Assembly (NCBI GenBank): GCA_016699365.1
Contig: CP064973.1
Location: forward strand, 575,161 to 639,160
Reading direction: 5' to 3'
DNA from: Candidatus Nomurabacteria bacterium
GTDB taxonomy: Bacteria; Patescibacteriota; Minisyncoccia; Phycocordibacterales; UBA9973
DNA: 64,000 nt
In this document: piece after piece, positions 32,409-58,968 of the stretch
Position numbering within the stretch: position 1 is the first letter of the stretch
How the letters are laid out: each line of letters begins with the position of its first letter
Position numbers and translations under genes: made by a program
Notes under the pieces: generated by a model
Databases searched by the model: none
Seen by the model: only the letters and a program-made list of their open reading frames with translations
What the model was told of the DNA's origin: nothing

Positions 32409-32919
32409 TTTGCTTTAGAGCAAGCAACAATGCGCTCACCAAGGTTTCTTTTCGAGTTATTTTACCTTTAGAGAGTATTGAGTGCGGGTCCTGATGGTCT
32501 CCGCCAAGCTTTTCTGCAATAACTCTGCCTACGGTATTTTTCTCAAACCCACGGCTTTTTGCTTCACGAACATATTGTTCGGGAAAAACTATACCCGGAG
32601 AAGAAACTACTATCTCGCGATCTTCTGGTGTTAAGACCACAATCATAGCAAATTCGAGTGTAAGTGAATTGTGAGCAAGGCGGATAATTCCATTTTCAAT
32701 ACCAATTGCGATAGTATCATCCGCTTTTTCTTTGGCTAGCTGTGCTCTGTTCAAAGCGCCAGCATATATTTCAGTAAAACCTGCTGGCTGTTCGTTCTGG
32801 CCAGAAGGAACCTTGACTGCACTTAAGATCAGATCAAGACCAAGTGTTTTGCAAGCTTCCTCTACAGCGCTTCTTTTTAGAGTGCTGGTGGTACCGAGTG
32901 TTATCTTTATTCCATTCAT
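32404..32919 (-). CDS. inosine/xanthosine triphosphatase (YjjX/DUF84 family)
   Basis: ...GFTEIYAGALNRA... and ...GKITRKETLVSALLLAL align with the YjjX motifs GSEETRAGARNR / AGKLTRASVYHQAVILAL. Confidence 0.7.
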   Translation of the reverse strand: MNGIKITLGTTSTLKRSAVEEACKTLGLDLILSAVKVPSGQNEQPAGFTEIYAGALNRAQLAKEKADDTIAIGIENGIIRLAHNSLTLEFAMIVVLTPEDREIVVSSPGIVFPEQYVREAKSRGFEKNTVGRVIAEKLGGDHQDPHSILSKGKITRKETLVSALLLALKQI

Positions 32920-41827: not shown

Positions 41828-41862
41828 AAATCCAGAACATTCAATATGTTCTGGATTTTTTA
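41828..41862. terminator. bidirectional terminator
   Basis: ATCCAGAACA-TTCAATA-TGTTCTGGAT (10-bp stem) followed by TTTTTAATT; cysS (-) ends at 41860. Confidence 0.65.
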
Positions 41863-43266
41863 ATTGTTCTTTCGAATCATCTGATCACCGTTGGGTAGGT
41901 CTTTTACTTCATAACCCAATTTCTCTATATCCTGACGCAGAGAATCTGACAAGACCCAATCTTTATCCTCACGAGCAAGATGTCTTTTAGAAGCAAGGTC
42001 TTCAACTTCTTTTGGTAGTTGTTGATTTTTATTTTTGCGAGATGTTTCTATAAGATCAAGGCCAAGCACTTTGTCGAATTCGGCAACAGTAGCCAGCTTT
42101 ACAGAGTCTTCAATAGAATCATCTTTCAATAAATCCCAAAGTAGAGCAAGTGCTCTTGAAACTTCAAGATCGTTGTCTATGAAGTCATTGAAAGATTTTA
42201 AATAGTTTGAATCAGCACTCCCAGATTCTTCTCCTAGATTCTCTATGTGAACAAGAAGTCTATTGTATGCATTTTGTGATGCCTCTAGAGCTTCCCAAGT
42301 AAAATTTAGAGATGAACGATAGTGACTAGAGAAATAAAAATATCTTAGAGCCATAGGTGAGAATCTTTTTTCCACTATGTCATGTAGAGAATACGCATTG
42401 CCGAGACTTTTTCCCATCTTACCTCCATCAACTTGTAAAAATGCACCATGCATCCAGCATTTTACAAAAGGGGATTTGTCAGTTGCTCCTTCGGATTGAG
42501 CTATTTCATTTGGATGATGAGTACTCTTCAGGTCTTCTCCTCCTACGTGTATATCAAATTGCTCACCTAGGTATTTCATACTCATAGCAGAGCACTCTAT
42601 GTGCCAACCAGGGAAGCCAGTACCCCAAGGAGACTCCCATTCCATGTCACGTTTTTCATCCTTTGGACTAAATTTCCATAGAGCAAAATCGCGAGGATTC
42701 TTTTTCTGTTGATTGAATTCCACGCGAGCACCCGCTTTAATTTTATCTAAGTTTGAAAGCTCTCCATATTTATAACCCTTGGCTTCAAAAGCGATAGTGT
42801 CAAAATATACACCGTCGTCTATGTTGTAAGTTAGCCCTTTTTCTTCTAATTTTTTTATCAAGTCTATTTGTTCAGAAATATGTTCTGTTGCTCGCGCAAA
42901 AGTATTTGGTGGAAGTAAATTTAAATCTTTATAAGAAGATAGAAAATCATCTATGTAAAATTGAGCTATCTCAAAAGCTCCTTTTCCTTCACGTTTTTTA
43001 GCCTTCTCCATTCTGTCTTCGCCCGTGTCCGCGTCTCCCAGGTTATCTCCAGTTAAGTGACCTACGTCTGTTAGATTCATAACGTAATTGACCTCTAAGC
43101 CATTGTATTTCAGGGCGCGATAGACAATATCACCCAAAATATAAGTCCTCCAGTTACCTATAGTTACATAGTCATATACTGTAGGACCGCATGTATAAAG
43201 CCCCACGATTTGGCTAGCGGGCTTGAATTCATCGATCTCTTTAGTAAGTGAATTATATAGTCTCAT
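41860..43266 (-). CDS. cysS: cysteine--tRNA ligase
   Basis: Start at [16 protein letters not shown]; class I synthetase motifs (...[13 protein letters not shown]..., KMGKS). Confidence 0.93.
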
Positions 43267-43348
43267 TGAGTCGATTATAGCCTGATTATGTAATCTGACC
43301 AAATACTATTGACTTTTTTGGCTCTTTAGCATAATATGGTCTTGTTAT

Positions 43349-45898: not shown

Positions 45899-46906
45899 AT
45901 GCAAAAACCAGAATCAATTGTCTTAACAGGAGATAGACCAACAGGCAGACTTCACTTGGGTCACCTAGTTGGATCACTACAAAAAAGAATAGAATTAGCA
46001 GAGAACGCGAAGCATTCTTTTTACATGATTGCTGATATTCAAGCACTTACCGACAATGCCGACAACCCAGATAAAGTTCGAAACAATGTACTCGAAGTTG
46101 CTCTAGACAATCTTGCGTGTGGACTAAAACCAGAAAAAACAATCATGTATATTCAATCTGAAATTCCTGAGATTGCTGAGTTAACAGTTTTGTTTATGAA
46201 CCTAGTTACAGTAGCAAGACTAAAGCGAAATCCTACAGTAAAAGCAGAGATGCAGCAAAAAGGTTATGGTGAAGATGTACCCGCTGGTTTCTTGGCTTAT
46301 CCGATATCCCAGGCTGCAGATATTTTAGTCATGAAGTCAAACTTAATCCCAGTTGGAGAAGACCAATATCCGGTTATCGAACAAGCAAACGAAATAGTCG
46401 ATACATTCAATCGATTGTATGGAAAAGTTTTTGACCGGATAGAACATGTTAGTGGAGGCACTGCGCGACTAGTCGGCACAGATGGAAACGCAAAGATGTC
46501 TAAATCTCTTGGTAATTGTATTTTCTTAGCAGATAGTGATGAAGCTATAGAAGAAAAGGTTATGAGTATGTACACAGACCCGAGTCATATTCGCGTGGAA
46601 GATCCAGGAAAAGTAGAAGGCAATGTTGTTTTCACATATCTAGATATTTTTGATCCAAACAAAGACGAGGTAGCTGAACTAAAGAAACAATATGAAAAGG
46701 GAGGACTTGGAGACGTAGTACTTAAAAAAAGACTTGCAGAAGTATTGAAAGAAATAATTTCTCCAATTCGCGAAAGACGTGAACAGCTTGCAAAGAATCC
46801 AAAGATGATTATGGATTTACTCGAAGAGGGAACTAAAGAAGCTCGCAAGGTCGCAGCTGAAACTATGCGCGAAGTACGAAGTGCGCTTAAAATTGATTAT
46901 TTCTAA
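45899..46906 (+). CDS. trpS: tryptophan--tRNA ligase
   Basis: TGDRPTGRLHLGHLVG (HIGH-like) and KMSKSLGN motifs; 335 aa. Confidence 0.93.
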   Translation: MQKPESIVLTGDRPTGRLHLGHLVGSLQKRIELAENAKHSFYMIADIQALTDNADNPDKVRNNVLEVALDNLACGLKPEKTIMYIQSEIPEIAELTVLFMNLVTVARLKRNPTVKAEMQQKGYGEDVPAGFLAYPISQAADILVMKSNLIPVGEDQYPVIEQANEIVDTFNRLYGKVFDRIEHVSGGTARLVGTDGNAKMSKSLGNCIFLADSDEAIEEKVMSMYTDPSHIRVEDPGKVEGNVVFTYLDIFDPNKDEVAELKKQYEKGGLGDVVLKKRLAEVLKEIISPIRERREQLAKNPKMIMDLLEEGTKEARKVAAETMREVRSALKIDYF

Positions 46907-46964: not shown

Positions 46965-48778
46965 ATGAATATAAAAGAAAATAAAGAAAAAAAGTTGGCA
47001 TTGAAAGATTATGCACACGGAATCAAACTCATCTGGCAGCAAATTACTGTGAACCACAAAAGGGAAGTGCGTACATTGGTAATTCTGTCTTTTTTTATTG
47101 CCATACTAGACGGTATTGTTCCACTTATCTCAGGACATTTTTTTGATGCGATAACAAATATATCTACTGATATTGGGAGTGTCTGGTTTGCGCTAATTCT
47201 ACTATTAGTCGTAACTGCATTCTCAGCTATAGGTCAAAAAATTAAAGTAACAAAGAGTGATTGGGTGAATTATAAAATAATCACGACTTATCATTCTGAT
47301 GTTGCCGCAAAGTTTGTAAAACTTCCTGTGTCATACCTAAAGAATCACCCAATGTCTGAAATGGTTCAAAAGACCATGACAGCGGGTAATAACCTGCAGT
47401 CAATGTTTAGTGATGTGATTATGGAACTTTTACCAGCATTCTTGGGGATCATCGTTGCGTTTGTTACAGTTTTACGATAAACACAAATATGTCTCTAGTG
47501 CTTTTGGCTGGAGTTTTAACATATGTGCTGATTGTTCTAAGAACAGTTGGAGACGGTGCAAAATTCCAAAGAGAAAATCAAAAGCAATGGGTGCATGCAT
47601 GGAGGGCAAGGTCCGATGGGTTGAACAATATTGCGACAGTAAAACAATTTGCCGCAGAAGAGTACGAAACTGAAAAGAATCGACAAAACTACACAGTTAA
47701 AGTACTAGGTGCCCAAAGAAGACTTTGGGAGTTGTGGAGTAAAATTAATATATCTCAAAAAATAATAGTCTTAGCAACTCAAGCAGTTATATTAATCTTG
47801 TCTATAAAAATGCTTCAAGTGAACTCACTAACACCAGGTCAGGTTATTGCATTCAATGCATACGTAGGCATGGTATTTAATCCATTCTTGCGACTTGGAA
47901 ATATGTGGCGCACTATTCAGAATTCAATTATAAATGTTTCTGATGCTCATGAAATACTTTCTATTGAACCAGAAAATTATAACGAACCCGGTGCAGTAAA
48001 AAAGCAGATTAACGGAGATGTAGAATTCAAGAGCGTTGCATTCTTTCATGATGAGCGCAAGCTTGTGCTCGATGACCTATCGTTCTCTGCACCATCGGGA
48101 TCTGTAATTGCGTTCGTAGGTAAAACTGGCTCTGGTAAGACATCGCTTACAGAATTGATATATCGATTCCATGACCCAAAGACTGGCGAGATACTCGTGG
48201 ATGGAATTCCAATAGACAAATATGATCTCACAAGCTTGCGGTCACAGATTGGAATTGTCCCACAGGAACCAGTACTTTTTGACACTACAATCCGCGAGAA
48301 CATAATGTATCCTCGCAAAGATGTAAATCAAAAAGTATTGAACGACGCAGCGAAAAAAGCTGACCTGCTTGAGTTTATAAAAGACCAACCTGATGGATGG
48401 GAGACAATCGTTGGAGACAGAGGGGTAAAGCTTTCTGGCGGACAGAAACAGAGAATCGCGATTGCACGAGCACTTGTGGCCAATCCAAAAATTCTAATCT
48501 TGGATGAATCAACTTCAGCGCTCGATGCAGAGACTCAGAGAACAATTGAAAATTCCCTCAAAGAACTAATGAAAGGTAAAACTACCTTCATAGTTGCTCA
48601 TAGACTTAGTGCTGTGCGCAATGCAGATAAAATCTGTGTATTGCACAAAGGTAAAATTGTCGAAGAGGGAACTCACGACGAACTGATACAGATTGCAAAT
48701 GGACGTTACAAAAAGCTCTATGACCTGCAGTTCAAGGAAGAGGAAATCCTCATTGCTGAGCATGAGCTTGAAGATTAA
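46965..48778 (+). CDS. MsbA-like ABC exporter (fused permease and ATPase), interrupted by an apparent -1 frameshift
   Basis: TM helices 1-3 lie in ORF 46965-47480; TM4-6 plus the NBD (Walker A GKTGSGKTS, LSGGQKQR, Walker B ILILDE) lie in ORF 47489-48778. One extra T in the T4 run at 47470-47473 restores ...FVTVFTINTNMSLVLL... Confidence 0.8.
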
Positions 48779-48861
48779 AGTCCTTTAGATTTCGTTTCGA
48801 AAAGGATGGCCAGAACTCGAATTCGTAAGTACGGCACGGGTATGCCCGTTATAGCTTAGTG

Positions 48862-48896
48862 AAACCGTAAGATCTAATCTTGCGGTTTTTTATATT
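48862..48896 (+). terminator. rho-independent terminator
   Basis: ACCGTAAGAT-CTAA-TCTTGCGGT followed by TTTTTTATATTT. Confidence 0.65.
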
Positions 48897-48928
48897 TGAT
48901 GTTATAAATATTTCAAATATTGTAACGT

Positions 48929-49426
48929 ATGAATAAGTCAAAAACTGAAATCGCTAAAAAAGTTGAACTAATTAAATCAATCGATTTCACTCAATTAAAA
49001 GAAAAACTTATGGACCCCAATGAAGGCAAAGGCTGGTCCAAAGACGAGTGTAATGACCTAGAATTGCTCTATAAAGATTTTCTCGTCCTCATGCTGAAGT
49101 ATCCAGAAAAATCTATTGTGCCCACTACGATGATAGATGAATTCTGGCATGCGCACATCCTTGATACCAGAAAGTACCATGAGGACTGTAAATTGATTTA
49201 TGGAGAATATCTGCATCATTTTCCGTACTTTGGACTAAGAGGTGAGAGTGACAAAAAGGATCTTGAGGATTCGTTTACAGCAACCAAAAAACTGTGGGTT
49301 AGCGAGTTTGGATATGAAGTGGACAATCCATTCATTAAAGTAAGCATCTATACTCACAAGAAGGTTACTAACGCGAATAGTTGTAGAAATTGCGTTAGTA
49401 CATGTGCCGGCTCATGCACACGATAA
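48929..49426 (+). CDS. conserved hypothetical protein with a Cys-rich C-terminus
   Basis: 165 aa; motif FWHAHILDTRKYHEDC; C-terminus NANSCRNCVSTCAGSCTR. Confidence 0.5.
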   Translation: MNKSKTEIAKKVELIKSIDFTQLKEKLMDPNEGKGWSKDECNDLELLYKDFLVLMLKYPEKSIVPTTMIDEFWHAHILDTRKYHEDCKLIYGEYLHHFPYFGLRGESDKKDLEDSFTATKKLWVSEFGYEVDNPFIKVSIYTHKKVTNANSCRNCVSTCAGSCTR

Positions 49427-49444
49427 ATGAATTATATTTTTTAA

Positions 49445-49472
49445 AATACCCGCTTGCGGGTATTTATTTTTG
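49445..49472 (+). terminator. rho-independent terminator
   Basis: AATACCCG-CTTG-CGGGTATT followed by TATTTTT. Confidence 0.55.
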
Positions 49473-49484
49473 GTAGTAGTATAA

Positions 49485-49645
49485 AGATATCCACTGATCC
49501 GCTGACAACGGGGAGGAAAACCAAGATTACAAGGTCATCTCGCTCGAAACGAGACTGACGAAGTAGGGTGGCACCGCGTTTCAAACATGAATCGCCCCTG
49601 CGAATTTACAAACTAATGTAAGTTCGAAGAGGCGATTTTTGTTTC
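49485..49645 (+). promoter_or_regulatory. T-box riboswitch leader for aspS
   Basis: T-box core AGGGUGGCACCGCG at 49565-49578. The antiterminator fits: AGGG/CCCU and GCG/CGC helices around a UGGCACC bulge, where UGGC would pair the tRNA GCCA end. A mutually exclusive terminator AAUCGCC...GGCGAUUUUU lies at 49592-49645. Candidate specifier GAC followed by A at 49504-49507. Confidence 0.75.
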
Positions 49646-49664
49646 CTCTAGAGCTCAAAAACAT

Positions 49665-50959
49665 ATGGTAAAAGCTATACATGTTTCTGAATTGAAAAAT
49701 CATAGTGGTGAAGACGCAACCGTACAAGGTTTCGTTCATACACTTCGCGTGCAAAGTAAGATTATTTTCTTGATACTTCGTGATGTAACTGGAATCGCAC
49801 AAACAGTTGTAGAGATCAAAGATCCTGAAGTATTTGAAATTGCAAAAAATCTCTCTCATGAATCTGTTGTTAGAATATCCGGCTTAGTAAAAGACGTACC
49901 TCAGGCTCCAGGTGGATTTGAAATTGGAGTCTCATCTATCGAAGTACTCTCAGTTGCAAACCCTGAACTACCGATTCCAATTATTGAAAGGGAAATGAGG
50001 AAACAGAAGCTCCAACACGTTTTGACTATCGATGGATAGACCTACGTAAGCCAGAAAAAACAAAAATATTTAAAGTTTGGACTGAGCTCGAAAAAGGTTT
50101 CAGAAAATATTGGGATGAAAATGGGTATACCCAGCTCTACTCACCATCTTTTATGTCTACACCGTCTGAAACTGGAGCAGAAGTTTTCGAGGTAAATTAT
50201 TTTGACCGCAAGGCATACCTCGCACAATCTCCACAATTCTACAAACAAATGGGAATTGCATCTGGTTTTGAGCGCGTATTTATCGCAGGTCCAGTATTTA
50301 GAGCAGAAGAATCTTTCACAACTCGTCATATGACAGAGTTCACTGGCTGGGACTTCGAGATTGGTTTTATAGATTCACACCATGATGTTATGGACCAAGA
50401 AGAAGGAATGATTGTTTCTGGATTTGAAAATCTAAAAGCTAAATTCCCAGAGCTTGATATTACTGTTCCGAGTATACCTTTTCCAAGAATAAAAATGACT
50501 GAAGCAAAAGAAATCCTTTCCAAAGAAGGAATTGCAAGTTCTGAAGACCATGACCTATCACCAGAAGAAGAACGCGCAATATGTGAATATGTAAAAAAAG
50601 AACACAATCACGAATTCGTTTTCATAACTGATTACCACAAATCAAAATCTGCTTTCTACCACATGAGATTGGAAGAGGGATCTGACAGATCTCGTCGCGC
50701 AGACTTACTTTTCCGAGGTATCGAAATAACGACACTTGCACAACGTGAGCATCGTATAGACATACTTGAAGCTCAGGCAAAGGAGAAGGGAATGTCACTT
50801 GAAGCACTGTCTGACTATCTAAATTTCTTCCGCTACGGCTGTCCTCCACATGGAGGTGCTGGAATTGGCCCAGGACGTCTTATAATGAAGATCTTAGACC
50901 TTCCAAACGTCCGTGAGGCGACATATCTACCGAGAGACGTGAAGAGACTTAATCCGTAA
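49665..50959 (+). CDS. aspS: aspartate--tRNA ligase, archaeal/eukaryal type, interrupted by an apparent -1 frameshift
   Basis: OB-fold anticodon-binding domain in 49665-50039; the catalytic core in the -1 frame reads from ...TRFDYRWIDLRKPE... (motif 2 FRAE, motif 3 GGAGIGPGRL, C-terminus LPRDVKRLNP as in archaeal-type AspRS). One extra T in the T4 run at 50020-50023 joins them. Confidence 0.85.
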
Positions 50960-50993
50960 AAGATAAAAGCACCCATTGCGGGTGCTTTTTTAT

Positions 50994-51644
50994 TTAATTA
51001 CCATTTATTGATAAATCATACTGATTTAGTATTAGTTCGCGCATATCATGACAGACACGATTAATACTTCCACTTGGGATTTTTCCAAGTATACAACAAG
51101 GATGCATTTCCAAGGTATCTAAAACTGATTCGTACCAGAAATTCTTCATTCGATCATCTCCAAACTGGTGATTGTCTGCAATAAGTCCTACAGGTATAGA
51201 ATGCATGATTGCCCATGCAACTATCCCTAATCCTTGCGGGAAATTATCTGGATATCTAGGATCAAAATAATCGTATCGTCGTACATATAGATCTGTAATA
51301 ATTCCATCAATATCCTCAAGTGGTTTTGTTTCAGGCTCTTCTACTACAGAATCCACGAGCTTGGTTTTTATCGCAAGTGCGCTTGAGCTTTCATCTTGAG
51401 TATACAATTCATTTATTTCAAGTCTTTTTACTATTTTTTCTTCAGGAATTAGTCTATTGCGAAATGAAAGATGATTTAGATTTGCGCCCACCATTTTTTC
51501 AAATTCTTCAATCGATTTTGCAATCAAATTACCCTCATCAAGAAGAAAGAATTTTCGCATGTATATATCATCTTCACTTAATTTCAAAGAAGAACTTAAA
51601 CGAATTATTTTGAAGTTCGTACTTGTATTTGCTGACACTTTCAT
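50994..51644 (-). CDS. hypothetical protein
   Basis: 216 aa; conserved-looking GLGIVAWAIMHSIPVGLIADNHQFGDD; no family recognised. Confidence 0.5.
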   Translation of the reverse strand: MKVSANTSTNFKIIRLSSSLKLSEDDIYMRKFFLLDEGNLIAKSIEEFEKMVGANLNHLSFRNRLIPEEKIVKRLEINELYTQDESSSALAIKTKLVDSVVEEPETKPLEDIDGIITDLYVRRYDYFDPRYPDNFPQGLGIVAWAIMHSIPVGLIADNHQFGDDRMKNFWYESVLDTLEMHPCCILGKIPSGSINRVCHDMRELILNQYDLSINGN

Positions 51645-51735
51645 AGAATATTTTTTAAAACAATAACAAACAATCTTACTAATGTCAAATATAAAAAGCT
51701 TTTAATATCCATTTTTTTAGCTTACAATAGTTTTT

Positions 51736-56185: not shown

Positions 56186-57313
56186 ATGAGAATACTTTTT
56201 ACAGGAGGAGGAACCGGCGGGCATTTTTACCCAATCATTGCTATTGCTGAAGCATTGAACAAGATAGTCGACGAGGAAAAGATTTTAAAATCGGAACTTT
56301 ACTATATGTCTACCGAGCCATATGACAAGCAGGCACTTTTTGAAAATAATATAAAGTTTGTACAAGTAAACGCAGGTAAGCTTCGGATATACCCATCTAT
56401 AAAAAACATAACTGATATGTTTAAAACAGCGACTGGATGCATGGAAGCAATATTTAAAATATTTGCTCTATATCCTGATGTTGTATTTGGTAAAGGTGGC
56501 TTTGCGAGCTTCCCAGCACTTTTTGCAGCAAAGATTCTACGTATACCTGTAGTTATCCATGAATCAGACTCTGCCCCGGGTAGAGTAAACAAATGGGCAA
56601 GTAAATTTGCAAAAAGAATAGCAATATCTTTCCCAGAAGCAATAGACTCTTTCCCAAAAAATAAAACAGCTTGGACAGGACAGCCTGTGCGTAGAGATAT
56701 TGCACGAGGAGTAAAAGAAGGAGCTCATGAATACTTTGGGTTTGATCAAAACATTCCAGTGATCCTAATTTTAGGTGGATCTCAAGGTGCTCAAAAAATA
56801 AACAACGCTCTTATAGACGCACTTCCTGCTCTTCTTCCAAATTTCCAAATAATTCATCAAGTTGGTCCTAAAAATCTTGAAGACATAACACAAACCGCAA
56901 ACGTAATAATTGCAAACAATGAATTCAAAAAAAGATACAAACCTATTGGTTTTTTAAATCCATTGGGAATAAAAATGGCAGCTGGTGCTGCAAATATAGT
57001 AGTATCTCGTGCTGGTTCAACCATATTTGAAATAGCAGGCTGGGGAGTTCCAGCTATAATAATTCCTTTTGATAAATCAAACGGAGATCATTCACGTAAA
57101 AATGCGTATACATACGCAAGAAGTGGCGCAGGAGAGGTGATAGAGGAAACAAATCTTTCCCCAAACCTTCTAGTTGCAGAAATCGAAAAATTGGTAGGGG
57201 ATAGTGTGAAAATAGAAGCAATGAAAAAAGCCGCGCTTTCTTTTGCGCGACCAGATGCTGCAAATACTATTGCAAGAGAAATTATAAATATCGCACTCAA
57301 GCACGAACAATAA
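56186..57313 (+). CDS. murG: UDP-N-acetylglucosamine--N-acetylmuramyl-(pentapeptide) pyrophosphoryl-undecaprenol GlcNAc transferase
   Basis: MRILFTGGGTGGHFYPIIAIAEAL N-terminal Gly-rich motif; GT-B fold. Confidence 0.93.
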   Translation: MRILFTGGGTGGHFYPIIAIAEALNKIVDEEKILKSELYYMSTEPYDKQALFENNIKFVQVNAGKLRIYPSIKNITDMFKTATGCMEAIFKIFALYPDVVFGKGGFASFPALFAAKILRIPVVIHESDSAPGRVNKWASKFAKRIAISFPEAIDSFPKNKTAWTGQPVRRDIARGVKEGAHEYFGFDQNIPVILILGGSQGAQKINNALIDALPALLPNFQIIHQVGPKNLEDITQTANVIIANNEFKKRYKPIGFLNPLGIKMAAGAANIVVSRAGSTIFEIAGWGVPAIIIPFDKSNGDHSRKNAYTYARSGAGEVIEETNLSPNLLVAEIEKLVGDSVKIEAMKKAALSFARPDAANTIAREIINIALKHEQ

Positions 57314-57316
57314 AAA

Positions 57317-57445
57317 AAGCGCCGATCTAAAAAGAGATCGACGCAAACGAGGTCTGATCACACCCCTGGATACCTCCACTGTCAGCTCATTAGGCCACAG
57401 CAACCGGGAGGGTCGTTGCTATGCCTGTACTCTCTAATCCGTAAT
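57317..57445 (-). ncRNA. candidate small structured RNA of unknown class, antisense-oriented between murG and gltX
   Basis: GC-rich island. The minus strand ends with the intrinsic terminator GCGUCGAUCU-CUUUUU-AGAUCGGCGC plus UUUUUU at 57317-57350. Internal hairpin AGCAAC-CGGGAGGGUC-GUUGCU. No good match to SRP, tmRNA, RNase P or tRNA. Confidence 0.4.
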
Positions 57446-57516
57446 TAGGATATTAACATATTAATATTCTAAAGTCAAGTATCCTCAAAAAAGCCTTTAT
57501 TTGCTATACTTTTTCT

Positions 57517-58968
57517 ATGCCTGAATCAAAAAAAGTTGTAACTCGTTTTGCACCAAGCCCAACAGGCTATATGCATATAGGTGGTGTGCGCACTGCGCTT
57601 TTTGCGTGGGCATTTGCACGTAAAAATAAAGGAACTTTTATACTTAGAATAGAAGATACTGACAAAGCCCGTGAAGTAGAAGGTTCTATTGAACATATAA
57701 TAAAATCTTTAAAGTGGCTCGGTATTGAGTGGGATGAAGGAGTCGATATAGGCGGACCAAATGCACCATATCTTCAATCAAAAAGATTGGACTCTTATAA
57801 AAAATACGCAAACATTTTAATCGAAAAAGGTCTTGCTTACGCAGACCCATATACAGAAGCAGAAGTTGAAGAATTTAGAAAAAAATCCGAAGCAGATAAA
57901 AAACCTTTTTTGTTCAGAGATTACAGACCAGAAAATCCTCCAGCTTGGGATGGAACAAAACCTCTTCGGTTAAAAGTATCTGAAATAAAATCTTATAAAT
58001 GGAACGATCTAGTTCGAGGAGAACTTTCTGCTGGACCGGAAGCTTTAGATGACATAATTCTAATTAAAAGCGATGGATATCCTACTTACAATTTTGCACA
58101 TATAATCGACGATCTAGAAATGGGAGTAACACATATCATGAGAGCCGATGAATTCATATCTTCAACTCCAAAGTTTTTGTCTATATACGAAGCACTTGGT
58201 ATTGAAAGACCTGAATTTGCGACCCTTCCGCCTATTATGGCTCCTGATGGAAAAAAGAAGCTCGGCAAGCGCGACGGTGCAAAAGATATATTGGAATACA
58301 AAGACGAAGGATATTTACCCGAAGCCATGATAAATTTTTTGGCTTTTATTGGATGGAACCCAGGAGACGAAAGAGAAATTCTTAGCCCTTCTGAGTTTAT
58401 AGAATCTTTTGATATTACAAAGGTCCAAAAATCTGGAGGTGGTTTTAATACAGAGAAACTAAATTGGATAAATCGTGAACATATGAAAAGTCTTACAGAG
58501 TCTGAATTTTTAATTAAATTAGATGAACACATACCGCAAGATTTTAAAAACAAGATAGGGGATAAAATAAATAAACTAGTACCACTAATCAAAGAAAGGA
58601 TAGAGAAATTTTCTGATATAAAAAATATGATAGAGATAGGGGACTTAGATTATTTTTCTGATAGACCAAAATACGATGCGACTAAATTGATATTTAAATA
58701 TTCCACAAAAGAAGCTATTGTTGAAAATCTAAAACATGGATATGAATTGATAGATGGAATAAAAGATACTGAATTTACACAAGATTCTATAAAAGAAACT
58801 CTTATGAATAATCTAGATAAAGATAAGCGTGGTCCGACACTTCATCCTATTCGTATAGCACTATCCGGACTAGATAAATCACCAGATCCTTTTGTTATTT
58901 CATCTATATTGGGCAAATCAGAGACATTGGAAAGAATCAAAATTGCTATGGAACTCCTCGCGGGTTAA
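57517..58968 (+). CDS. gltX: glutamate--tRNA ligase
   Basis: VVTRFAPSPTGYMHIGGVRTALF (HIGH region) and KLGKRDGA (KMSKS-like) motifs. Confidence 0.93.
   Translation: MPESKKVVTRFAPSPTGYMHIGGVRTALFAWAFARKNKGTFILRIEDTDKAREVEGSIEHIIKSLKWLGIEWDEGVDIGGPNAPYLQSKRLDSYKKYANILIEKGLAYADPYTEAEVEEFRKKSEADKKPFLFRDYRPENPPAWDGTKPLRLKVSEIKSYKWNDLVRGELSAGPEALDDIILIKSDGYPTYNFAHIIDDLEMGVTHIMRADEFISSTPKFLSIYEALGIERPEFATLPPIMAPDGKKKLGKRDGAKDILEYKDEGYLPEAMINFLAFIGWNPGDEREILSPSEFIESFDITKVQKSGGGFNTEKLNWINREHMKSLTESEFLIKLDEHIPQDFKNKIGDKINKLVPLIKERIEKFSDIKNMIEIGDLDYFSDRPKYDATKLIFKYSTKEAIVENLKHGYELIDGIKDTEFTQDSIKETLMNNLDKDKRGPTLHPIRIALSGLDKSPDPFVISSILGKSETLERIKIAMELLAG

What the first reader, a model, noticed from the sequence alone, without database searches (positions are those of the whole stretch)
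49485..50959. T-box riboswitch controlling an archaeal-type aspS
The aspS leader carries the T-box core AGGGUGGCACCGCG. Its antiterminator geometry fits: AGGG/CCCU and GCG/CGC helices bracket a UGGCACC bulge whose UGGC pairs a tRNA 3' GCCA (discriminator G, as in tRNA-Asp). A competing terminator and a GAC-A candidate specifier are present. The leader is short, about 160 nt, and may lack Stem II. T-boxes are characteristic of Firmicutes, and the AspRS here is the archaeal/eukaryal type, so the pairing is unusual.
Basis: partly seen in the sequence, partly recalled or inferred. Interest (0 to 1): 0.6.

Follow-up and report, generated by a model that had tools for sequence, protein, structure and literature searches.

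The report
Minimal T-box leader before aspS
The aspartyl-tRNA synthetase gene of this uncultivated ultra-small (CPR/Patescibacteria) bacterium is preceded by a real but drastically shrunken T-box, a tRNA-sensing RNA switch that lacks two parts textbooks call necessary and is missed by the standard database model.

Summary
Window 49490-49646 holds a T-box-type leader: a K-turn, a 3-bp helix whose 7-nt terminal loop carries U-GAC-A, a 16-nt linker, Stem III, the core AGGGUGGCACCGCG in an antiterminator, and a competing terminator followed by a U-run. The aspS ATG is at 49665. Rfam RF00230 scores it 25 bits against a gathering score of 93, and only the antiterminator aligns.

Seventeen homologous leaders precede orthologous aspS genes in other Patescibacteria. 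None reaches the Rfam threshold. Stem I, the antiterminator and the terminator all show compensatory changes. The loop codon is GAC (Asp) in most and AAC (Asn) in three. This fits the enzyme, which scores as the non-discriminating aspartate--tRNA(Asn) ligase. tRNA-Asp and tRNA-Asn genes on related contigs have discriminator G, matching UGGC.

Most relatives keep Stem II and the IIA/B pseudoknot. The window lineage has lost both. Its structured leader is still essentially invariant, while 35-40% of aspS third codon positions differ.

Terminal-loop ("ultrashort") Stem I was described only for translational ileS T-boxes that depend on Stem II. I read this as a new variant: a transcriptional Asp/Asn T-box whose sensing region is about 112 nt. 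Function is inferred, not shown.

The parts
49444..49473 (+). Intrinsic terminator of the upstream 165-aa gene. It bounds the leader on the 5' side, so no long Stem I can lie upstream.
   Evidence: Terminator scan. Homology to L001 and L002 resumes only at 49453 and 49476.
49477..49485 (+). Promoter -10-like element (TAGTAT/TATAAA). The transcription start is inferred at about 49488-49490.
   Evidence: By eye, TAnnAT-like boxes sit 6-12 nt before Stem I in the homologous leaders. This is an inference. The sigma-70 scan found no full promoter here.
49490..49517 (+). Ultrashort Stem I. Its parts are: K-turn UCC-ACU-GA (49490-49497) pairing with GA-GGA (49513-49517); helix CCG/CGG (49499-49501 with 49509-49511); and the 7-nt terminal loop CUGACAA (49502-49508).
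   Evidence: Covariation: 92% of cells paired and 6 of 8 pairs with compensatory changes, reached by 0 of 500 shuffles on cells paired and covariation score (2 of 500 on the pair count). A leave-one-out covariance model scores it 31.3 bits, E 1.4e-7, the only significant hit in the window. In relative L036, RF00230 aligns the K-turn.
49504..49507 (+). Specifier GAC (Asp) followed by the conserved purine A.
   Evidence: The same register holds in 13 aligned leaders: GAC in 10 and AAC in 3. It is complementary to anticodon GUC of the tRNA-Asp on L024.
49518..49533 (+). 16-nt single-stranded linker. It occupies the place where relatives carry Stem II and the IIA/B pseudoknot.
   Evidence: There is no F-box (CCGUUA) and no S-turn helix here, whereas both are present in L005, L033, L036, L037, L043, L052 and L079. 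It is the only leader segment between Stem I and the terminator that differs from L001; L002 also has one substitution in the terminator loop.
49534..49559 (+). Stem III: 9 bp with one bulged C and the loop CUCGAAA. It is followed by the conserved GAAGU.
   Evidence: strand folding. RF00230 aligns it with high posterior probability.
49563..49601 (+). Antiterminator with the T-box core. Helix A1 pairs 49563-49568 with 49596-49601. The bulge UGGCACC is at 49569-49575. Helix A2 spans 49576-49595.
   Evidence: RF00230 model positions 183-216 match. Covariation: 92% paired and 6 of 11 pairs compensatory, 0 of 500 shuffles. The fold energy is -12.9 kcal/mol.
49589..49646 (+). Intrinsic terminator. 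The hairpin at 49589-49638 shares 49589-49601 with the antiterminator. The U-run is UUUUUGUUU (49636-49644).
   Evidence: Energy is -24 kcal/mol. Covariation: 92% paired and 10 of 16 pairs compensatory, 0 of 500 shuffles. A comparable hairpin followed by a clear U-run is present in 12 of the 17 leaders tested, and two more (L012, L051) have one by eye.
49641..49657 (+). Segment after the U-run (UGUUUCCUCUAGAGCUC). It is complementary to the 3' arm of the terminator. Its role is unknown.
   Evidence: Duplex energies are -11 to -16 kcal/mol in 8 related leaders. At most 9% of shuffles do as well, and the complementarity covaries.
49665..50959 (+). aspS, an archaeal-type non-discriminating AspRS of 431 aa when repaired. 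In this sequence the frame is broken by one missing A at 49986-49990.
   Evidence: NCBIfam NF003483 at 466 bits and TIGR00458 at 391 bits. ORF list. Comparison with L001 and L002 and with L105.
50965..50989 (+). Terminator of aspS.
   Evidence: Terminator scan.

Best explanation
This is a T-box riboswitch reduced to its essentials. It controls transcription of a non-discriminating AspRS gene in a CPR/Patescibacteria bacterium.

Proposed mechanism, inferred from anatomy and comparison:
1. Transcription starts a few bases before 49490.
2. A K-turn and a 3-bp helix present GAC in a 7-nt terminal loop, CUGACAA. This loop has the Y-U-NNN-R-N pattern of an anticodon loop.
3. GAC pairs with the GUC anticodon of tRNA-Asp.
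4. A 16-nt linker leads to Stem III and the antiterminator.
5. If the bound tRNA is uncharged, its 3' GCCA pairs with UGGC in the bulge. This stabilises the weak antiterminator (about -13 kcal/mol) long enough for RNA polymerase to pass.
6. Otherwise the stronger terminator (-24 kcal/mol, then a U-run) forms and transcription stops before aspS.

The leader has no Stem I distal platform to hold the tRNA elbow. In this lineage it also has no Stem II or IIA/B domain, so tRNA would be held at only two points.

Orthologous leaders carry either a GAC or an AAC specifier. The enzyme they control charges both tRNA-Asp and tRNA-Asn.
For: **Shown by tools**
- The core, the antiterminator/terminator alternative and GAC-A are present.
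- RF00230 aligns the antiterminator with high posterior probability.
- Seventeen homologous leaders precede orthologous aspS genes, whose proteins are 55-97% identical.
- In relatives, RF00230 aligns the K-turn, Stem II, the F-box and the antiterminator at 24-51 bits.
- All three helices show compensatory changes and collapse in slid controls. The shared strand covaries with both of its partners, for example in L024.
- The specifier stays in register as GAC or AAC. The enzyme scores as aspartate--tRNA(Asn) ligase.
- The tRNA-Asp(GUC) on L024 and the tRNA-Asn on L044 both have G73.
- Outside the linker, about 145 nt of leader show 0 and 1 substitutions against L001 and L002. Their aspS coding sequences are only 84-86% identical, with 35-40% of third positions changed.
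- The leader is identical in an independent 99.2% strain that has an intact aspS.
- A leave-one-out Stem I model gives E 1.4e-7. In 542 kb of loci it hits only aspS leaders.
- The organism uses ordinary hairpin-plus-U terminators.
Against: - No experiment exists. tRNA binding and antitermination are inferred.
- RF00230 is far below its gathering score.
- Reviews state that transcriptional T-boxes need the long Stem I with its elbow-binding platform. They also state that truncated Stem I's bind tRNA barely detectably without Stem II (PMC7583486, sections 4, 6.2 and 8). The GAC-GUC duplex has only two G-C pairs, unlike the GGC of glyQS.
- No tRNA gene lies in the 64-kb window, so the cognate tRNA of this genome was not seen.
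- The promoter and transcription start are inferred.
- aspS is frameshifted in this sequence.
- L036, L043 and L079 have a weak U-run or none, so those leaders may act differently.
Confidence: 0.75

Rival explanations
1. It is a decaying relic. The leader descends from a T-box, but after losing Stem II and IIA/B it no longer binds tRNA. It now acts only as a constitutive, leaky attenuator.
For: The literature says a truncated Stem I without Stem II barely binds tRNA (PMC7583486). In the window itself aspS is frameshifted.
Against: The structured parts, including the specifier loop and the T-box bulge, are invariant against L001 and L002 while synonymous sites have diverged 35-40%. A relic would drift at a similar rate. 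Only the linker has changed. A 99.2% identical strain has an intact aspS behind the same leader.
Confidence: 0.12
2. It is a T-box that needs a helper or reads only the tRNA 3' end. In this view the short hairpin is not a working specifier. Specificity or affinity would come from a protein, from another RNA contact such as the long Stem III or the A-rich linker, or from the discriminator base alone.
For: The window lineage has the longest Stem III of the family and no Stem II. Lengthening Stem III raised tRNA affinity about 6-fold in an ileS T-box (10.1101/2023.02.28.530422).
Against: U-GAC-A or AAC-A is conserved in register in all 13 aligned leaders. It switches between exactly the two amino acids whose tRNAs the enzyme charges. 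That is hard to explain unless the loop is read.
Confidence: 0.1
3. It is a translational T-box like the actinobacterial ileS class. In this view the 3' hairpin hides the ribosome-binding site instead of terminating transcription.
For: Ultrashort Stem I has so far been described only in translational T-boxes. L036, L043 and L079 lack a good U-run. A further helix can form just upstream of the start codon.
Against: In the window the hairpin ends 27 nt before the ATG. It is followed directly by UUUUUGUUU and contains no start-proximal Shine-Dalgarno sequence. Most of the 17 leaders show the same hairpin-plus-U-run layout: 12 in the automatic scan and two more by eye.
Confidence: 0.03

Closest known systems
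Ultrashort (US) Stem I T-boxes of actinobacterial ileS (Nocardia farcinica type; Sherwood et al. 2015, as described in 10.1101/2023.02.28.530422 and PMC7583486)
   Same: Stem I is replaced by a short helix with the specifier in the terminal loop. There is no distal platform for the tRNA elbow. The T-box bulge and antiterminator-type core are the same. Most CPR relatives also keep Stem II with its S-turn and the IIA/B F-box.
   Different: The known class is translational, acting through a sequestrator, and is said to regulate only ileS with tRNA-Ile. It depends on Stem II. Here the switch is a hairpin-plus-U-run terminator, the specifiers are Asp and Asn, and the gene is aspS in Patescibacteria. 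The window lineage has no Stem II or IIA/B at all.
glyQS/glyQ T-boxes of Bacillus and relatives
   Same: They are transcriptional. They naturally lack the Stem II domain, so the layout is Stem I, linker, Stem III, antiterminator and terminator (PMC7583486).
   Different: glyQS has a long Stem I with the elbow-binding platform and an all-G/C specifier, GGC. The review uses that specifier to explain why Stem II is dispensable. Here Stem I is a hairpin of about 28 nt and the specifier is GAC.
Rfam RF00230 T-box leader (canonical Firmicutes type)
   Same: It shares the K-turn at the base of Stem I, a specifier followed by a purine, Stem III, the 14-nt T-box sequence and the antiterminator/terminator competition.
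   Different: About 70 model positions of Stem I are absent, and in the window Stem II and IIA are absent too. Scores are 25 bits for the window and 24-51 bits for relatives, against a gathering score of 93.
Asn-specific T-box control of tRNA-dependent asparagine formation in Clostridium acetobutylicum (Saad et al. 2012, cited in PMC4206432)
   Same: A T-box links expression of a non-discriminating AspRS pathway to tRNA-Asn charging. Three CPR leaders (L012, L036, L079) carry AAC.
   Different: That system is a canonical long T-box in a Firmicute. I did not read the paper itself. It is known to me only through the citing paper and from memory.

Membership tests
T-box leader (RF00230, mechanism class) | Conserved T-box sequence with a 7-nt bulge that starts UGGN, flanked by helices A1 and A2 | tested here: met
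   AGGGUGGCACCGCG lies at 49565-49578. RF00230 positions 183-216 align. A1 and A2 covary.
T-box leader (RF00230, mechanism class) | Mutually exclusive terminator that uses the 3' strand of the antiterminator, followed by a U-run | tested here: met
   Covariation is shown.
T-box leader (RF00230, mechanism class) | Specifier codon that matches the amino acid of the regulated gene, followed by a purine, with UGGN matching the tRNA discriminator | tested here: met
   GAC-A sits before aspS. Orthologues carry AAC-A. The tRNA-Asp and tRNA-Asn of relatives have G73. The enzyme is the Asp/Asn non-discriminating type.
T-box leader (RF00230, mechanism class) | K-turn (GA motif) at the base of Stem I | tested here: met
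   The motif is UCC-ACU-GA with GA-GGA. The C-stem covaries among CG, GC and UA pairs. RF00230 aligns it in L036.
T-box leader (RF00230, mechanism class) | Long Stem I with AG bulge and distal loop, forming the platform for the tRNA elbow | tested here: not met
   Stem I ends in the specifier loop. In L036, 72 model positions are replaced by 2 nt. The upstream terminator and promoter leave no room for a longer Stem I.
T-box leader (RF00230, mechanism class) | Stem II with S-turn and the IIA/B pseudoknot (F-box CCGUUA); absent in glycine T-boxes | tested here: not met
   The window has only a 16-nt linker at 49518-49533. The feature is met in relatives L005, L033, L036, L037, L043, L052 and L079.
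T-box leader (RF00230, mechanism class) | Score at or above the Rfam gathering threshold | tested here: not met
   The window scores 25.4 bits against 93. None of 16 relatives reaches the threshold.
T-box leader (RF00230, mechanism class) | Binding of uncharged cognate tRNA and tRNA-dependent antitermination | not testable with these tools
   This needs in vitro transcription or binding assays.
Ultrashort-Stem-I T-box class (actinobacterial ileS) | Specifier in the terminal loop of a short helix | tested here: met
Ultrashort-Stem-I T-box class (actinobacterial ileS) | Translational control: a sequestrator that hides the ribosome-binding site | tested here: not met
   The hairpin is followed by a U-run and ends 27 nt before the ATG. 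No Shine-Dalgarno sequence lies in the helix.
Ultrashort-Stem-I T-box class (actinobacterial ileS) | Regulates ileS and responds to tRNA-Ile; contains the Stem II domain | tested here: not met
   The gene is aspS, the specifiers are GAC or AAC, and the window lineage has no Stem II.
CPR aspS leader family (defined here) | K-turn plus terminal-loop specifier within 70-195 nt upstream of a T-box core, in front of an archaeal-type aspS | tested here: met
   The two modules co-occur in all members and nowhere else in 620 kb.

The most novel reading that the evidence does not exclude
The window-type leader may be the smallest natural T-box yet seen. Its sensing region is about 112 nt (49490-49601). 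It would recognise tRNA at only two points: an anticodon-loop-like hairpin kissing the anticodon, and the UGGC bulge pairing with the 3' end. It would still make a co-transcriptional termination decision, without an elbow platform, Stem II or pseudoknot.

This would overturn two stated rules. One is that transcriptional T-boxes need the long Stem I. The other is that truncated Stem I's need Stem II. It would also extend T-boxes to the CPR, with an Asp/Asn specifier switch tuned to a non-discriminating AspRS.
Probability: 0.5. Interest if true: 0.8.

Novelty: new variant of a known kind. Interest (0 to 1): 0.65.

Why it matters
T-boxes are the model system for RNA that recognises another folded RNA. 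Current reviews state that a switch acting on transcription needs the long Stem I to capture tRNA quickly. They also state that short Stem I's work only at the level of translation and only with Stem II.

A family that pairs a terminal-loop specifier with a terminator would show which contacts are truly required. One lineage has also dropped Stem II while staying under strong selection.

Such a leader would offer a very small natural tRNA sensor for engineering. It would also show that amino-acid sensing through tRNA exists in the streamlined CPR bacteria, where almost no regulation is known.

The family is invisible to the Rfam threshold, so T-boxes may be under-counted outside Firmicutes and Actinobacteria.

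Tried and rejected
- **Automatic MAFFT alignment of Stem I.** It put the 3' strands out of register. I replaced it with hand alignments padded with N, which MAFFT left unchanged.
- **A long Stem I hidden upstream.** Rejected. The terminator of the preceding gene ends at 49473, and homology to L001 and L002 begins only at 49453 and 49476.
- **RF00230's Stem I and Stem II alignment.** It is spurious, because it runs into the upstream gene, terminator and promoter. Restricting the search to the transcript leaves only the antiterminator.
- **Programmed frameshift in aspS.** Rejected. There is no slippery heptamer and only a 3-4 nt A run. A 99.2% identical strain has GAAAAGGG and an intact gene.
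- **General sequencing noise in the window.** Five other pairs of overlapping ORFs are separate genes, not splits. Only aspS and the ABC transporter are broken.
- **Second T-box-like site at 32887.** It lies inside a minus-strand coding region and has no flanking helices, so I treat it as chance.
- **Stem I model hit in L007.** It falls on the start of a coding sequence, so I treat it as chance.
- **Look-up of the truncated 124-aa AspRS fragment.** Nothing is on record.
- **Papers not held.** Sherwood 2015 (PMC4313828) and Vitreschak 2008 (PMC2271356) are not in the library. Their content is taken from papers that cite them.
- **Literature searches linking T-box with CPR, Patescibacteria or Parcubacteria.** None found anything.

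Full report
**1. What is in the sequence**

The window has 36.6% G+C. It holds no tRNA gene and no Rfam match at gathering score.

Between the terminator of a 165-aa gene (49444-49473) and the aspS start codon (49665) I read the following elements.
- A -10-like box at 49477-49485.
- A K-turn: UCC-ACU-GA at 49490-49497, pairing with GA-GGA at 49513-49517.
- A 3-bp helix, CCG/CGG.
- The 7-nt loop CUGACAA at 49502-49508, with GAC at 49504-49506.
- A 16-nt linker.
- Stem III at 49534-49559.
- GUAGGG-UGGCACC-GCG...CGC-CCCUGC at 49563-49601.
- A hairpin at 49589-49638 followed by UUUUUGUUU.

Folding supports the switch.
- Cut at 49602, the RNA folds into the antiterminator.
- With the 3' arm included, it folds into the terminator.
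- The full leader has a z-score of -3.8 against shuffles.
- The antiterminator is worth about -13 kcal/mol and the terminator -24 kcal/mol.

**2.

RF00230 does not reach its gathering score of 93.
- The window scores 25.4 bits (E about 1e-3) in a 501-nt search. Only Stem III and the antiterminator align credibly there.
- Restricted to the transcript, the score is 19.7 bits on model positions 183-216.

The comparative data below show that the criterion was too strict.

**3. Host and gene**

The repaired AspRS finds orthologues only in CPR/Patescibacteria assemblies labelled Paceibacterota, Nomurabacteria, Zambryskibacteria, Taylorbacteria and similar. There are 50 genome loci and 54 metagenome loci.

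The protein scores above the curated cut-offs for aspartate--tRNA(Asn) ligase, NF003483 at 466 bits and TIGR00458 at 391 bits. This is the archaeal-type non-discriminating enzyme.

**4. A family of leaders**

- The T-box core lies upstream of aspS in L001, L002, L003, L005, L008, L012, L013, L024, L033, L036, L037 (identical to L082), L042, L043, L051 (cut at its 5' end), L052 and L079. It is also in L105, a 99.2% identical strain.
- The AspRS proteins of these loci are 55-97% identical to the window's.
- Most other aspS loci have no such leader, so the distribution is patchy.
- None of the relatives reaches the Rfam threshold. In E-value mode they score 24-51 bits.
- For L036 the model aligns the K-turn, Stem II, the IIA hairpin with the F-box CCGUUA, and the antiterminator. 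It deletes 72 positions of Stem I.

**5. Covariation**

I used hand alignments padded with N.

| Element | Cells paired | Pairs with compensatory change |
|---|---|---|
| Stem I | 92% (68% when shuffled) | 6 of 8 |
| Antiterminator | 92% | 6 of 11 |
| Terminator | 92% | 10 of 16 |

- No shuffle of 500 reached the observed values, except the Stem I pair count, which 2 of 500 reached.
- Slid controls fell to 31-56% of cells paired.
- The shared strand changes together with both partners. In L024, for example, ACGG/CCGU in helix A1 goes with ACGGACG in the terminator.
- The alignments were made by hand with these structures in mind, which favours them. The slid controls and the number of distinct pair types argue against an artefact.
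- A Stem I model built without the window-type sequences finds 49487-49519 at 31.3 bits (E 1.4e-7). The next hit scores 12 bits. In 542 kb of loci it hits only aspS leaders.

**6. Specificity**

- The loop reads (N)U-GAC-A in ten of the 13 aligned leaders and AAC-A in L012, L036 and L079, always in the same register.
- The bulge is UGGC in all but three of the 14 aligned leaders. L037, L043 and L079 have UGGU.
- On L024 a tRNA-Asp gene lies downstream of aspS. Its anticodon loop is CUGUCAC and its discriminator is G.
- A tRNA-Asn on L044 also has discriminator G, and it has a U1-A72 pair. That pair is the mark of tRNA-dependent Asn synthesis noted in PMC4206432.
- A sensor that reads either Asp or Asn tRNA in front of an enzyme that charges both is coherent biology. 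It argues that the loop is really read.

**7. Reduction of the middle domain**

- L052 has a full Stem II with internal-loop purines plus IIA/B.
- L005 and L033 have a mini Stem II plus IIA/B.
- L003 and L024 lack the F-box.
- The window, L001, L002 and L105 have only the linker.
- The window also has the shortest Stem I to T-box spacing, 71 nt against 77-193 nt in the others.
- It has a comparatively long Stem III.

**8. Is the reduced form alive?**

- L001 and L002 aspS coding sequences are 84% and 86% identical to the window's. Of 432 third codon positions, 171 and 152 differ.
- Over the same comparison, the leader from Stem I to the terminator differs only in the linker, plus one base in the terminator loop of L002.
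- Identity drops again at the start codon, so this is not a recently transferred block.
- That pattern indicates purifying selection on the RNA.

**9. Transcription or translation?**

- The hairpin is followed at once by a U-run and ends 27 nt before the ATG.
- No Shine-Dalgarno-like sequence precedes aspS in any member.
- Other genes in the window end in ordinary hairpin-plus-U terminators.
- Twelve of the 17 leaders tested have a strong hairpin followed directly by a clear U-run. L012 and L051 have the same layout by eye, although the automatic scan over-extended their hairpins.
- L036, L043 and L079 do not, and may work differently.

**10. Comparison with the literature**

- The 2020 review says transcriptional T-boxes generally require the long Stem I with its elbow-binding motif. 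[quoted passage not shown] It explains why glyQ T-boxes can lack Stem II by their GGC-GCC pairing (PMC7583486).
- A 2023 preprint says all ultrashort T-boxes regulate ileS and act on translation.
- The TBDB database looked for this class only in Actinobacteria (PMC7778990).
- Full-text searches found no paper that mentions T-boxes together with CPR taxa.
- The family therefore combines known parts in a way not described before. The window lineage goes one step further.

**11. Verdict**

- Homology to T-boxes is secure.
- The mechanism, tRNA-Asp-dependent antitermination, is the best-supported reading, and I put it at about 0.75. It rests on conservation and covariation, not on experiment.
- How a two-contact T-box could bind tRNA fast enough is open. 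My hypothesis is that CUGACAA folds like an anticodon loop and forms a stable loop-loop complex. UGACA is complementary to U33-A37 of the tRNA-Asp loop. This is inference only.

**12. Side observations**

- The aspS and ABC-transporter frameshifts are the only two indels against L105 in 7.7 kb. Both genes are intact in L105. I cannot tell assembly error from real mutation.
- A conserved complementarity links the terminator's 3' arm to the segment after the U-run. It is unexplained.

Noticed in passing
window 49986-49990 (aspS) and about 47465-47475 (ABC transporter, ORFs 46965-47480 and 47489-48778): Two single-base deletions break two conserved genes within 3 kb. They are the only indels in 7.7 kb against the 99.2% identical contig L105, where both genes are intact at 431 aa and 604 aa. 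Five other pairs of overlapping ORFs in the window are separate genes, not splits.
   Followed up: yes
window 49621-49657; also L003, L005, L012, L013, L033, L051, L052: The 3' arm of the T-box terminator is complementary to the stretch just after the U-run. The duplex reaches 11 bp and -11 to -16 kcal/mol, and it covaries as AAGAGG/CCUCUU versus UCGGAG/CUCCGA. This would be a third alternative helix, with the U-run in its loop. Its role is unknown.
   Followed up: partly
L012 about 327-350, L036 about 1913-1936, L079 about 1777-1800: Three orthologous aspS leaders carry AAC (Asn) instead of GAC (Asp) at the specifier position. This fits a non-discriminating AspRS.
   Followed up: partly
L042 about 2780-2960: This is a divergent aspS T-box. 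It has an 8-nt bulge, UUGGCACC. GAC sits in an internal loop below a short distal hairpin, which resembles an intermediate-length Stem I rather than an ultrashort one.
   Followed up: no
window 57312-57450, minus strand: A G+C-rich intergenic element of about 130 nt lies upstream of a class Ic aaRS gene (57517-58968). On the minus strand it ends in the hairpin GCGUCGAUCU...AGAUCGGCGC followed by seven U. It is a candidate small RNA and has no Rfam match.
   Followed up: partly
window 45899-46906 (+), 41860-43302 (-), 57517-58968 (+): Three other aminoacyl-tRNA synthetase genes lie in the window: a Trp/Tyr type, CysRS and a class Ic Glu/Gln type. None has a T-box core or a Stem I module upstream.
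   Followed up: yes
window 48780-49452 and 50966-51694: There are strain-level gene-content differences on both sides of aspS. The 165-aa gene (48929-49426) is absent in L001. The 0.7-kb stretch after aspS, with a 216-aa minus-strand ORF, is replaced in L105 by 2.2 kb carrying two other genes.
   Followed up: partly
window 49645-49664 and the same place in relatives: No Shine-Dalgarno-like sequence precedes the aspS start codon in any leader of the family. The region is A/U-rich.
   Followed up: no
L024 2493-2776 and 4977-5051: Two tRNA-Met genes sit directly upstream of the aspS leader. A tRNA-Asp gene, whose CCA is not encoded, sits about 700 nt downstream of aspS.
   Followed up: partly
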